18,119 bases of DNA from a virus (taxonomy: Duplodnaviria; Heunggongvirae; Uroviricota; Caudoviricetes): the IMG/VR virus record IMGVR_UViG_3300043803_001772; one strand, 5' to 3'. The notes beneath the pieces were generated by a model that saw nothing but the letters and a program-made list of their open reading frames with translations, was not told where the DNA came from and ran no database searches. The first letter of the stretch is position 1. Every line of letters starts with the position of its first letter. Both the position numbers and the translations under genes were made by a program. Of this stretch, positions 6,322 through 6,712 are shown piece by piece.

Positions 6322-6400
6322 TGGTAGCGGGGACAGGATTTGAACCTGTGACCTCCTGGTTATGAGCCAAGCGAGCTGATCCGGGCTGCTCCACCCCGCA
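6322..6400 (-). tRNA. initiator tRNA-fMet (CAT)
   Basis: TGCGGGG/CCCCGCT with a 1:72 mismatch, A11:U24, overall close to bacterial fMet; the 29:41 pair is U-A rather than G-C. Confidence 0.9.
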
Positions 6401-6407
6401 AATTGTT

Positions 6408-6420
6408 TTGTTAAAGAACT
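6408..6420 (-). promoter_or_regulatory. boxA-like site
   Basis: AGTTCTTTAACAA between the promoter and tRNA-fMet. Confidence 0.6.
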
Positions 6421-6431
6421 AACTAAAAATT

Positions 6432-6459
6432 ATCTTATCACACATTGATGTTTTGTCAA
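6432..6459 (-). promoter_or_regulatory. sigma70-like promoter
   Basis: TTGACA-N16-TAAGAT with TGTGTGA before the -10. Confidence 0.75.
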
Positions 6460-6472
6460 CATCTAAAATCGT

Positions 6473-6552
6473 CGCCGGTCTTTTAATTGGCGCTTTAATC
6501 CTCTGGTGGGGAACCAACTCAAGTGTCCTATTAATCGGGTATTCTCCGGGCG
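6473..6552 (-). ncRNA. possible small structured RNA (element Z)
   Basis: 80 nt closed by CGCCCGG/CCGGCG, internal TGGT-TCCCC-ACCA hairpin, directly after a tRNA-like gene. Confidence 0.3.
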
Positions 6553-6556
6553 TAAA

Positions 6557-6628
6557 TGGTTGGAACGGTGGGTGCTGCCCCCACTTAAACTGGCTTATGA
6601 AACCTGTTTCTTTGCTGAAAGCGCTCCA
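6557..6628 (-). tRNA. atypical tRNA-like gene, anticodon CAT
   Basis: TGGAGCG/CGTTCCA-A-CCA, loop TTCATAA, perfect GTGGG/CCCAC T-stem but T-loop GGCAGCA; D-loop lacks GG. Confidence 0.65.
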
Positions 6629-6635
6629 ATTAAAA

Positions 6636-6712
6636 TGGTTGCTGAAGCGTAGGAATCGCACCTACTTAATGAGTGGTTATGAGCCACCCCCAGATCTAAC
6701 CTGCCGCCAGCT
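6636..6712 (-). tRNA. atypical initiator-like tRNA, anticodon CAT
   Basis: A1xA72 mismatch, A11:U24, loop CTCATAA, perfect GTAGG/CCTAC T-stem with loop TGCGATT, 2-nt bulge in the 3' acceptor strand, CCA. Confidence 0.65.

What the first reader, a model, noticed from the sequence alone, without database searches (positions are those of the whole stretch)
6322..6712. Cluster of three Met/fMet-type CAT genes, two of them non-canonical
A normal fMet is followed within 400 nt by a U1-A72 CAT gene and by an initiator-like gene (A1xA72, A11:U24, bulged acceptor) that shares TGGCTCATAACCA with the normal fMet. The anticodon loops are intact while the bodies are remodelled. This fits decoys for initiator-tRNA anticodon nucleases (e.g. 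VapC-type toxins cut tRNA-fMet) or specialised initiators.
Basis: partly seen in the sequence, partly recalled or inferred. Interest (0 to 1): 0.72.

Follow-up and report, generated by a model that had tools for sequence, protein, structure and literature searches.

The report
Three methionine-type tRNAs, two rebuilt
A freshwater phage's tRNA operon holds three genes with the methionine anticodon; the two that gene finders miss are real, conserved tRNAs with rebuilt cores, and one belongs to an unannotated compact tRNA family found only in phages that most likely serves as their ordinary (elongator) methionine tRNA.

Summary
Observation confirmed. On the minus strand lie a near-canonical initiator-type tRNA(CAU) (6322-6400), a 72-nt CAU cloverleaf (6557-6628, "cand2") and a 77-nt initiator-like CAU cloverleaf (6636-6712, "cand3"). 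ARAGORN and Rfam find only the first.

Cand2 occurs in about 30 IMG/VR phage contigs from at least four lineages. Its loops and CAU never change, and 13 of 21 stem pairs show compensatory changes. It has no residues 8-9, a 4-bp D hairpin with a CAGC tetraloop, a 6-8-bp anticodon helix and a GGCAGCA T-loop. It was absent from 185,579 bacterial and archaeal genomes and from cultured phages. In every phage tRNA set checked it is the only CAU tRNA that is neither initiator-like nor Ile2-like, so it is probably the elongator tRNA-Met.

Cand3 exists as five near-identical haplotypes. It sits in a slot where related phages carry other variant initiator-like genes.

Both follow a general rule in these phages: G55-C56 T-loops go with D-loops that lack GG. 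The scan had already noted this A18/G55 swap on other DNA (CPR bacteria and phages).

The decoy/VapC idea is untested and nothing here supports it specifically. Expression evidence is weak, and charging is inferred.

The parts
6322..6400 (-). Near-canonical initiator-type tRNA(CAU): U1xU72, A11:U24, A73, CCA, T-loop UUCAAAU
   Evidence: ARAGORN. Rfam RF00005 at 56 bits with 1:72 flagged non-standard. Identical in L001-3, L007, L065 and L075.
6432..6459 (-). Promoter-like site TTGACA-16-TAAGAT with TG, just upstream of the initiator-type gene
   Evidence: Consensus scan. The same type of site occurs at 7239-7266 and 5393-5420. This is a consensus match only.
6456..6553 (-). Optional structured spacer unit ('Z') between cand2 and the promoter, closed by CGCCCGG/CCGGCG
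   Evidence: Present in the window, L050, L021, L023 and L106 with a different interior but the same closing helix. Absent in L028 and L052. Function unknown.
6557..6628 (-). cand2: 72-nt compact tRNA(CAU). It has a 7-bp acceptor stem, no residues 8-9, a 4-bp D stem with CAGC tetraloop, a 6-8-bp anticodon helix, loop UUCAUAA, a 5-bp T stem with GGCAGCA loop, A73 and CCA. Most likely the elongator tRNA-Met.
   Evidence: Covariation: 93.7% of cells paired, 13 of 21 pairs compensatory, slid controls 36-49%. RNAalifold predicts the same fold. Covariance model R1 scores family members at 87-94 bits. CAU census.
6629..6635 (-). 7-nt spacer UUUUAAU between cand3 and cand2, the same kind as between canonical tRNAs (UUUUAAC, UUUAGU)
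   Evidence: Read from the sequence. It is the only position in cand3-cand2 that differs in L007.
6636..6712 (-). cand3: 77-nt initiator-like tRNA(CAU). It has A1xA72, G2:C71, C3:G70, a UU bulge in the acceptor stem, A11:U24, a 5-nt D-loop UUAGA, a 6-bp anticodon stem, T-loop UGCGAUU, A73 and CCA.
   Evidence: Its MFE fold is a cloverleaf. Five haplotypes were found in the viral and metagenome scans. The 3 variable sites are all in stems and keep pairing.
7239..7266 (-). Promoter-like site heading the unit Lys-Glu-Y RNAs-cand3-cand2
   Evidence: consensus match only.
4538..4559 (-). The only intrinsic-terminator-like site, at the end of the RNA operon

Best explanation
The three genes are co-transcribed members of a phage tRNA operon. 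They are cut out like the neighbouring tRNAs and charged with methionine by the host MetRS.

Cand2 is the phage's elongator tRNA-Met in an old, phage-specific compact design. A D hairpin with a CAGC tetraloop stacks on a lengthened anticodon helix and docks into a GGCAGCA T-loop, which keeps an L-shape without G18, G19, T54 or Psi55.

The gene at 6322-6400 and cand3 are two initiator-type tRNAs, formylated by the host enzyme. Cand3 is one of several interchangeable variant initiators that related phages carry in the same slot.

Shown here: gene reality, fold, conservation, operon context, and the CAU census. Inferred: processing, charging, ribosomal use, and the reason for the rebuilt cores. 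My preferred reason is independence from, or escape from, host enzymes that read the tRNA body (modification enzymes or tRNA-cutting defences).
For: Fold and conservation of cand2:
- 13 of 21 pairs are compensatory and 93.7% of cells are paired, against 36-49% when partners are slid.
- RNAalifold independently predicts the same cloverleaf.
- Loops and CAU are invariant across AT-rich and GC-rich lineages.
- About 30 IMG/VR contigs carry it.

Identity marks:
- A73 and CCA are always present, G2:C71 is invariant, C3:G70 occurs in 5 of 6 sequences, and 1:72 is paired in 5 of 6.

CAU census:
- In the complete 296-kb phage G001 the only CAU genes are cand3, cand2 and one initiator-like gene.
- In G002 (at least 37 tRNAs), G003 and G004, cand2 is the only CAU tRNA that is neither initiator-like nor Ile2-like.

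Elbow:
- xGC T-loops go with D-loops lacking GG in 50 of 52 tRNAs. xTC T-loops go with GG in 352 of 359 (Fisher 5e-54; 3e-38 without CAU tRNAs).
- The GGCAGCA loop also occurs in otherwise ordinary Asp, Glu and initiator tRNAs.

Cand3:
- It is invariant where genomes differ by 4-8%.
- Its 3 variable sites keep pairing, following G:C > G:U > A:U.
- It has the same anticodon arm core, mismatched 1:72, A11:U24 and A73 as gene 1.

Context:
- Shared spacers and CCA-UUU ends, promoters plus a single terminator.
- No phage MetRS, Fmt, PDF, TilS or CCA-adding enzyme was found, so host enzymes must serve.
Against: - No direct evidence of mature RNAs, charging or ribosomal use. Metatranscriptome contigs cover cand2 and cand3 only at depth 3-6, and contigs cannot show ends or exclude DNA carry-over.
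- Cand2 lacks residues 8-9 and the canonical elbow, and no solved tRNA has this junction. Ribosomal competence is assumed by analogy with tRNA-Pyl and mitochondrial tRNA-Ser(UCN) (PMC7609411).
- Cand3's UU bulge next to the T stem could disturb recognition by Fmt, MetRS or RNase P.
- Cand3's own covariation rests on one pair and is statistically weak.
- G001's tRNA set lacks Asp and Phe, so the argument that a full set needs an elongator Met holds best for G002 and G003.
- The compact core is confined to the CAU tRNA, which hints at a Met-specific reason that this explanation does not supply.
Confidence: 0.5

Rival explanations
1. Decoys or sponges. Cand3 (and perhaps cand2) are not used in translation. 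They present an initiator or Met anticodon arm and acceptor end to host factors that attack or sequester tRNA-fMet or tRNA-Met, such as VapC-type PIN nucleases, Schlafen-type tRNases or acetylating toxins. This would spare the working tRNAs.
For: - The anticodon loop and acceptor end are fixed while bodies vary widely among paralogues.
- The slot upstream of cand2 holds different variant initiator-like genes in close relatives, and modules shuffle (L106: cand3-cand2-Z-cand3). This turnover pattern fits conflict.
- tRNA-fMet and tRNA-Met are known nuclease targets (PMC10264068; PMC13056530).
- There is a weak RNA-ligase-like ORF 7 kb from the cluster in G001 (24.9 bits, below the cut-off).
Against: - No nuclease or target was identified, and the host is unknown.
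- A cleavable decoy protects only stoichiometrically.
- Cand2 is old and stable across lineages and fills the elongator gap, which a decoy need not do.
- Retention of A73-CCA, G2:C71 and a compensated elbow suggests selection for a chargeable, L-shaped molecule.
- The rebuilt elbow occurs in tRNAs for many amino acids, so it is not a decoy mark.
Confidence: 0.17
2. Nuclease-proof spare initiator. Cand3 is a working initiator whose altered D arm, elbow and acceptor bulge remove contacts needed by a host tRNase that reads the tRNA body. Initiation would then continue after host (and gene 1) tRNA-fMet is cut. This is a sharper form of the main explanation for cand3 only.
For: - It has the same initiator marks as gene 1 on a different body (sequence).
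- Phage tRNAs that resist defence nucleases are established for T5 tRNA-Lys against PARIS (PMC11464382).
- Alternative variants occupy the same slot.
Against: - The loop and anticodon stem core are identical to gene 1, so it would not escape nucleases that read only the anticodon arm.
- There is no experimental link.
- Only five haplotypes exist, so there is no sign of ongoing diversification within cand3 itself.
Confidence: 0.13
3. Non-translational use. Met-charged or uncharged tRNA-like RNAs serve another process, such as an aminoacyl donor, a regulator of host tRNA-sensing pathways, or a processing or assembly scaffold within the RNA island.
For: - The island is packed with other conserved non-tRNA RNAs, including pseudoknotted Y units, a manA-like RNA and unit Z.
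- The compact core is restricted to the CAU species.
Against: - No partner enzyme was found: Fmt, MetRS, PDF, TilS and the CCA-adding enzyme are absent, and nothing suggestive lies nearby.
- The full anticodon loop with U33 and A37 is conserved, as needed for decoding.
Confidence: 0.12
4. Decaying tRNA pseudogenes, or a protein gene on the opposite strand (ORF 6453-6764, +).
For: - tRNA finders miss both genes.
- Cand3 has a bulged acceptor stem and its fold z-score is -0.32.
- An antisense frame is open across both genes in the window and in L021.
Against: - Cand2 shows compensatory changes in every helix.
- Cand3 is invariant where flanks diverge, and the differences in L007 fall only in spacers.
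- The antisense frame is broken in L028 and L023 by spacer-length changes.
- The ORFs have no PHROG match.
Confidence: 0.05

Closest known systems
Bacterial initiator tRNA-fMet (E. coli metZWV/metY type)
   Same: Gene 1 and cand3 have the CAU anticodon, loop CUCAUAA, an unpaired 1:72, A11:U24, G30:C40 and G31:C39, and an A73-CCA end (GCAACCA in cand3).
   Different: - The 1:72 mismatch is UxU (gene 1) or AxA (cand3) instead of CxA.
- Position 29:41 is U:A, so only two of the three G:C pairs are present.
- Cand3 also lacks G18, G19 and Psi55, and it has a 5-nt D-loop, a sixth anticodon-stem pair and a UU bulge in the acceptor stem.
Bacterial elongator tRNA-Met
   Same: Cand2 has CAU, A37, A73, G2:C71 and usually C3:G70, a paired 1:72, and a 7/5 acceptor/T-stem geometry. 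It is the only non-initiator, non-Ile2 CAU tRNA in the phage sets checked.
   Different: It has no residues 8-9, a 4-nt D-loop, a 6-8-bp anticodon helix, a 2-4-nt variable region and a GGCAGCA T-loop. It falls below the thresholds of every tRNA model. Charging was not tested.
Compact-core tRNAs: tRNA-Pyl and mammalian mitochondrial tRNA-Ser(UCN) (review PMC7609411)
   Same: These have one or no linker between the acceptor and D stems, a small D-loop lacking G18 and G19, a lengthened (6-bp) anticodon stem and a short variable region. In tRNA-Pyl the T-loop lacks T-Psi-C. They are still active on ribosomes.
   Different: The anticodon is CAU rather than CUA or UGA. The loop sequences are unrelated, and no dedicated synthetase accompanies these genes. 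Cand2's junction is even tighter, with an anticodon helix of up to 8 bp.
A18/G55 elbow-swapped initiator tRNAs of CPR bacteria and phages
   Same: Cand3's T-loop UGCGAUU with an AG-containing D-loop lacking GG is this design. About 35 other phage initiator tRNAs found here share the T-loop, together with D-loop AGUAGUA.
   Different: Those tRNAs otherwise keep the standard architecture and a CxA mismatch at 1:72. Cand3 adds the acceptor bulge, a short D-loop and AxA.
Phage tRNAs that counter tRNA-cutting defences (T5 tRNA-Lys against PARIS, PMC11464382; proposed for mycobacteriophage tRNAs against VapC, PMC10264068)
   Same: These are phage-encoded copies of a tRNA species that defence nucleases attack, differing from the standard form.
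   Different: In the known cases the anticodon loop or stem changes. Here the loop is untouched and the body changes. No nuclease, host or rescue is known.

Membership tests
Standard tRNA (Rfam RF00005 / ARAGORN) | Scores above the family threshold (29 bits) or is called by ARAGORN | tested here: not met
   Gene 1 scores 56 bits and is called. Cand2 has no hit even at E<=10. Cand3's only hit is tRNA-Sec at 17.3 bits. Neither was detected in G001.
Standard tRNA (Rfam RF00005 / ARAGORN) | Four-helix cloverleaf maintained by compensatory change | tested here: met
   Cand2: 13 of 21 pairs compensatory, all four helices. Cand3: only one pair covaries (G:C, G:U, A:U), so it is inconclusive on its own.
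Standard tRNA (Rfam RF00005 / ARAGORN) | G18-G19 in the D-loop and T54-Psi55-C56 in the T-loop | tested here: not met
   D-loops are CAGC and UUAGA. T-loops are GGCAGCA and UGCGAUU. They fit the alternative AG / G55-C56 rule.
Bacterial initiator tRNA-fMet | CAU anticodon with an unpaired 1:72 | tested here: met
   Gene 1 has UxU. Cand3 has AxA under the bulged-acceptor reading. Cand2 does not meet this: U:A in the window, G:U or G:C in relatives.
Bacterial initiator tRNA-fMet | A11:U24 in the D stem | tested here: met
   Gene 1: GAGC/GCUC. Cand3: CAGG/UCUG. Cand2 has U:A, A:U or G:C at that pair, so it does not meet this.
Bacterial initiator tRNA-fMet | Three consecutive G:C pairs at 29-31 / 39-41 | tested here: not met
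   Gene 1 and cand3 both have U29:A41, G30:C40 and G31:C39. The window's cand2 has two G:C pairs, and the L056 type has only C31:G39 and no G29-G31:C39-C41 pair.
Bacterial initiator tRNA-fMet | Formylation by Fmt and binding by IF2 and the 30S P site | not testable with these tools
   No phage Fmt was found in G001-G004, so the host enzyme would be needed.
Elongator tRNA-Met | CAU, A73 and a paired 1:72. Acceptor pairs 2:71 and 3:70 as in E. coli tRNA-Met (the identity set is quoted from established knowledge). | tested here: met
   Cand2: CAU and A73 are invariant, G2:C71 in 6 of 6, C3:G70 in 5 of 6, 1:72 paired in 5 of 6.
Elongator tRNA-Met | Fills the third CAU role beside the initiator and tRNA-Ile2 in a tRNA set | tested here: met
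   G001, G002, G003, G004 and the window show no other candidate. The gene at 4578-4654 is Ile2-like, and its counterpart in L001 has a TAT anticodon.
Elongator tRNA-Met | Charged by MetRS and delivered by EF-Tu | not testable with these tools
   No phage MetRS was found.
[quoted passage not shown] | At most 1 linker nt after the acceptor stem, a small D-loop without GG, an anticodon stem of at least 6 bp, and a short variable region | tested here: met
   Cand2 has 0-1, 4 nt, 6-8 bp and 2-4 nt respectively. Cand3 meets only the D-loop and 6-bp stem features.
[quoted passage not shown] | CUA or UGA anticodon with a dedicated synthetase or organellar setting | tested here: not met
   The anticodon is CAU in all members. 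The resemblance is in design, not membership.
Anti-defence phage tRNA | Sequence change at the nuclease's recognition or cut site relative to the targeted tRNA | tested here: not met
   Loop CUCAUAA and the 13-nt arm core are identical between cand3 and gene 1. The host tRNA is unknown, so the comparison is with the phage's own copy only.
Anti-defence phage tRNA | Rescues infection in a host carrying the nuclease | not testable with these tools
   No cultured relative exists in the phage collection.
tRNA pseudogene | Pair-breaking and loop changes, and patchy conservation | tested here: not met

The most novel reading that the evidence does not exclude
Cand2 defines a new structural class of working tRNA. 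It is a nearly linker-free four-way junction in which a D tetraloop hairpin, stacked on an 8-bp anticodon helix, docks into a GGCAGCA T-loop. Phages would reserve this design for methionine. Together with a fast-swapping slot of variant initiator tRNAs (cand3 being one), it would form a counter-defence module that keeps AUG decoding and initiation running when host tRNA-Met and tRNA-fMet are attacked.
Probability: 0.2. Interest if true: 0.8.

Novelty: new variant of a known kind. Interest (0 to 1): 0.62.

Why it matters
- Standard annotation misses both genes, so the methionine tRNA of a whole group of large freshwater phages is currently invisible.
- If cand2 works on ribosomes, it is a natural example of how far the tRNA core can be rebuilt. 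It has no residues 8-9, no G18, G19 or Psi55, and a lengthened anticodon helix. That is relevant to tRNA structure rules, tRNA gene finders and the design of orthogonal tRNAs.
- Closely related phages carry interchangeable variant initiator genes on fixed acceptor and anticodon ends. This gives a concrete system for asking whether tRNA bodies are a battleground between phages and tRNA-directed host defences.

Tried and rejected
- **RNA evidence.** Four metatranscriptome runs, kept only as contigs, were laid on 6150-7250. Cand2 and cand3 are covered at depth 3-6 by a few contigs from three studies. Contigs show no ends, strand or level, and DNA carry-over is possible. This counts only as a weak hint of presence in RNA libraries. 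The high depth at 6327-6377 comes from other organisms' initiator tRNAs.
- **Close cultured relatives.** None were found in 50,697 phage records. A 74% match of cand3 to the tRNA-Met of Bacillus phage G is ordinary tRNA similarity.
- **Bacterial and archaeal genomes.** 57 pattern hits were found, none tRNA-like. I estimated about 100 by chance from database size, not from a tool. The exact pattern would miss divergent forms.
- **Metagenome scan for new cand3 variants.** It returned only the five known haplotypes, so the covariation test for cand3 could not be improved.
- **Phage-encoded partners.** MetRS, Fmt, PDF, CCA-adding enzyme and TilS were absent from G001-G004. This argues against a self-contained orthogonal methionine system. 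Three of the four records are fragments.
- **Antisense ORF 6453-6764.** Rejected as a gene.
- **SpoU methyltransferase at 9203-9745.** Its best match is TrmH (Gm18) at 41.8 bits, far below the 227-bit cut-off. Its specificity cannot be named.
- **Literature.** Searches found no description of this compact CAU tRNA or of the A18/G55 swap in phages. The library is incomplete.

Full report
**Setting.** The window is phage DNA. It carries a virion protein (phrog_1645), 2OG-Fe(II) oxygenases, an HNH endonuclease, nucleotide-sugar genes and a SpoU methyltransferase. A 3-kb stretch on the minus strand holds seven tRNAs called by ARAGORN and a group I intron. No whole genome is held for it. The closest relatives are IMG/VR contigs from freshwater samples, 92-96% identical in DNA. 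No cultured phage is close.

**The observation.** Read on the minus strand, 6712 to 6322 contains cand3 (6636-6712), a 7-nt spacer, cand2 (6557-6628), about 155 nt with a structured unit and a promoter-like site, and then the gene at 6322-6400.
- Gene 1 is a tRNA by ARAGORN and by Rfam (56 bits). It has UxU at 1:72, A11:U24, A73-CCA and a standard elbow, but only two of the three initiator G:C pairs in the anticodon stem.
- Cand2 and cand3 are missed by ARAGORN, and by Rfam even at E<=10. The one exception is a 17-bit tRNA-Sec hit on cand3.
- By eye and by folding, both are cloverleaves with CAU in a 7-nt loop and an encoded A73-CCA.

**Cand2 is a real, old family.** Pattern scans of IMG/VR found the same 72-nt gene or variants in about 30 contigs.
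- There are four clearly different versions: the window type, the commoner L056 type, and the GC-rich L053 and L074.
- An ungapped alignment of six distinct sequences has every loop invariant (CAGC, yUCAUAA, GGCAGCA) while the stems change.
- Of 21 pairs, 13 show changes on both sides and 93.7% of cells are paired. No shuffle reached these values, and sliding the partners drops pairing to 36-49%.
- RNAalifold, given no structure, returns the same cloverleaf. It adds three pairs (20:42, 21:41, 22:40) that lengthen the anticodon helix to 8 bp. Within the L056 type, 20:42 runs through G:U, A:U and G:C.
- The design is: a 7-bp acceptor stem (the seventh pair is often GxA), no residues 8-9, a 4-bp D stem with a tetraloop, a 6-8-bp anticodon helix, a 2-4-nt variable region, and a 5-bp T stem.
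- A covariance model separates the family (87-94 bits) from everything else in 585 kb of phage loci. The next hits score 45 and 39 bits, for two still more GC-rich CAU genes with the same CAGC hairpin.
- The family was not seen in one genome from each of 185,579 prokaryote species or in 50,697 phage records.

**What cand2 probably is.** It has none of the initiator marks. Position 1:72 is paired in five of six versions, there is no A11:U24, and there are few G:C pairs in the anticodon stem. It keeps CAU, A37, A73, G2:C71 and mostly C3:G70.

I took a census of CAU genes in whole records:
- The complete 296-kb phage G001 has only cand3, cand2 and one initiator-like gene.
- G002, with at least 37 tRNAs, has two initiator-like genes, cand2 and an Ile2-like gene.
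- G003 has one initiator-like gene, cand2 and an Ile2-like gene.
- G004 has one odd CAU gene and cand2.
- In the window, the fourth CAU gene (4578-4654) is Ile2-like. Its counterpart in L001-3 has a TAT anticodon.

So cand2 always fills the place of the elongator tRNA-Met. These phages encode no MetRS, Fmt, deformylase, TilS or CCA-adding enzyme, so host enzymes would have to act on it.

**Cand3.** Viral and metagenome scans that allowed any stem sequence returned only five haplotypes, differing at three sites.
- Two of the sites are partners in the anticodon stem (G:C, G:U, A:U). The third turns a T-stem G:C into G:U.
- This is consistent with the fold but weak. By a rough estimate of my own, about 2% of neutral outcomes would place all three changes in stems with pairing kept.
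- Stronger evidence comes from conservation. The gene is identical in phages that differ by 4-8% overall, and in L007 the four differences between 6322 and 6712 all fall in spacers.
- In close relatives the slot upstream of cand2 holds either cand3 or other CAU genes with the same UGCGGG...CCGCUACCA ends and different bodies. At least seven body types occur in this phage group, and modules are reshuffled (L106).
- Cand3 carries the same initiator marks as gene 1 on a body with a small D-loop, a sixth anticodon-stem pair, a G55 T-loop and a UU bulge.

**The elbows are a general phage design.**
- Among 532 distinct tRNAs called in the fetched loci, T-loops with 55-56 = TC have GG in the D-loop in 352 of 359 cases.
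- T-loops with GC lack GG in 50 of 52 cases and show AG instead (Fisher 5e-54; 3e-38 without CAU tRNAs). These counts are not corrected for relatedness.
- GGCAGCA T-loops also occur in otherwise standard Asp, Glu and initiator tRNAs, always with CAGY in the D-loop.
- One initiator-like variant even pairs D-loop AAAAAUA with T-loop UGUAAUU, as expected if G19:C56 became A19:U56.
- Both odd genes obey the rule, which argues for a maintained L-shape and not for decay.
- Earlier notes of this scan reported the same A18/G55 swap in CPR bacterial initiators and in phages. I tested only the phage side.

**Operon context and expression.** Three promoter-like sites of one type (TTGACA-16-TAAGAT with TG) and a single terminator-like site frame the island. 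Every unit, including cand2 and cand3, ends in NCCA followed by UUU, with 6-7-nt spacers. Metatranscriptome contigs from three studies include cand2 and cand3 at low depth, but contigs cannot prove transcription or processing.

**Mechanism and rivals.**
- Most likely (0.5): these are working Met-accepting tRNAs. Cand2 would be the elongator and cand3 a second initiator. The rebuilt cores would free them from host enzymes that read the tRNA body. Fold, conservation and census are shown. Charging and use are inferred.
- Decoy reading (0.17): fits the slot turnover and the fixed functional ends. It lacks any identified nuclease and does not explain cand2's census position.
- Nuclease-proof spare initiator (0.13): a sharper version for cand3.
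- Non-translational roles (0.12): cannot be excluded.
- Decay or antisense coding (0.05): contradicted.

**Comparison with known systems.** In design, cand2 resembles tRNA-Pyl and mitochondrial tRNA-Ser(UCN) (PMC7609411), but it is not a member of either. Cand3 resembles elbow-swapped initiators. The conceptual precedent for phage tRNAs built to survive defence nucleases is T5 tRNA-Lys against PARIS (PMC11464382) and the anticodon-loop proposal of PMC10264068. Here the loop is unchanged, so that specific route is not used.

**Verdict.** This is a new variant of a known kind (tRNA), with one undescribed, phage-specific structural family. Interest 0.62.

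Noticed in passing
window 5074-5351 (-): The tRNA-Leu(UAA) gene is split after U34 by a group I intron (Rfam 74.8 bits at 5135-5327). The same tRNA is uninterrupted in L007, L052, L004 and L005.
   Followed up: partly
window 6222-6315 (-): A 94-nt tRNA with anticodon UAU and a long, paired variable arm (class II shape). It is conserved directly after the initiator-like gene in all relatives, and two copies occur in L007 and G001. A class II body with an isoleucine anticodon is odd. Its amino-acid identity is open.
   Followed up: no
window 4578-4654 (-): ARAGORN calls this tRNA-Met, but it looks like tRNA-Ile2(CAU). Its counterpart in L001-3 carries a TAT anticodon on the same body, and the antisense strand matches the plastid trnI-linked ycf2 motif (48 bits).
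   Followed up: partly
window 6716-7040 (-): Conserved non-tRNA RNA units lie between tRNA-Glu and cand3. One is an H-type pseudoknot (AUACUCU/AGAGUAU interleaved with UUGGGUG/CACCCAA) with a compensatory CUCU/AGAG to CUUU/AAAG change in L021 and L052. The stretch 6927-7000 has the highest RNA-contig depth of the region (56-220) in three riverine runs.
   Followed up: partly
window 6408, 7214, 5052 and relatives: A repeated junction motif AGTTCTTTAA(CAA) flanks the RNA units. Modules are exchanged at it. For example, L106 has cand3-cand2-Z-cand3, and L028 lacks Z.
   Followed up: partly
L028 1500-1580, L094, L095, L108: An initiator-like CAU variant with D-loop AAAAAUA and T-loop UGUAAUU. Both elbow contacts appear swapped (A18/G55 and A19:U56).
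   Followed up: no
window 9203-9745 (-): A SpoU-family RNA 2'-O-methyltransferase lies 2.5 kb from the island. Its best match is TrmH, the G18 methylase, but far below the cut-off.
   Followed up: partly
L174 10502-10577 (G001); L176 9809-9884 (G002); L058 661-736; L067 3788-3863: ARAGORN reports a tRNA with a four-base anticodon (ctct) in the complete 296-kb phage. It also reports a CUA (amber-reading) tRNA in the G002, L058 and L067 phages. Both hint at recoding or suppression.
   Followed up: no
G001 287747-288181: A weak RNA-ligase-like ORF (PF09414, 24.9 bits, below the 27-bit cut-off) lies about 7 kb from the tRNA cluster of the complete relative.
   Followed up: no
window 5510-6172 (-): A free-standing HNH endonuclease gene sits inside the tRNA operon. 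It is absent at this place in L001-3, where the stretch 5445-6214 has no match.
   Followed up: partly
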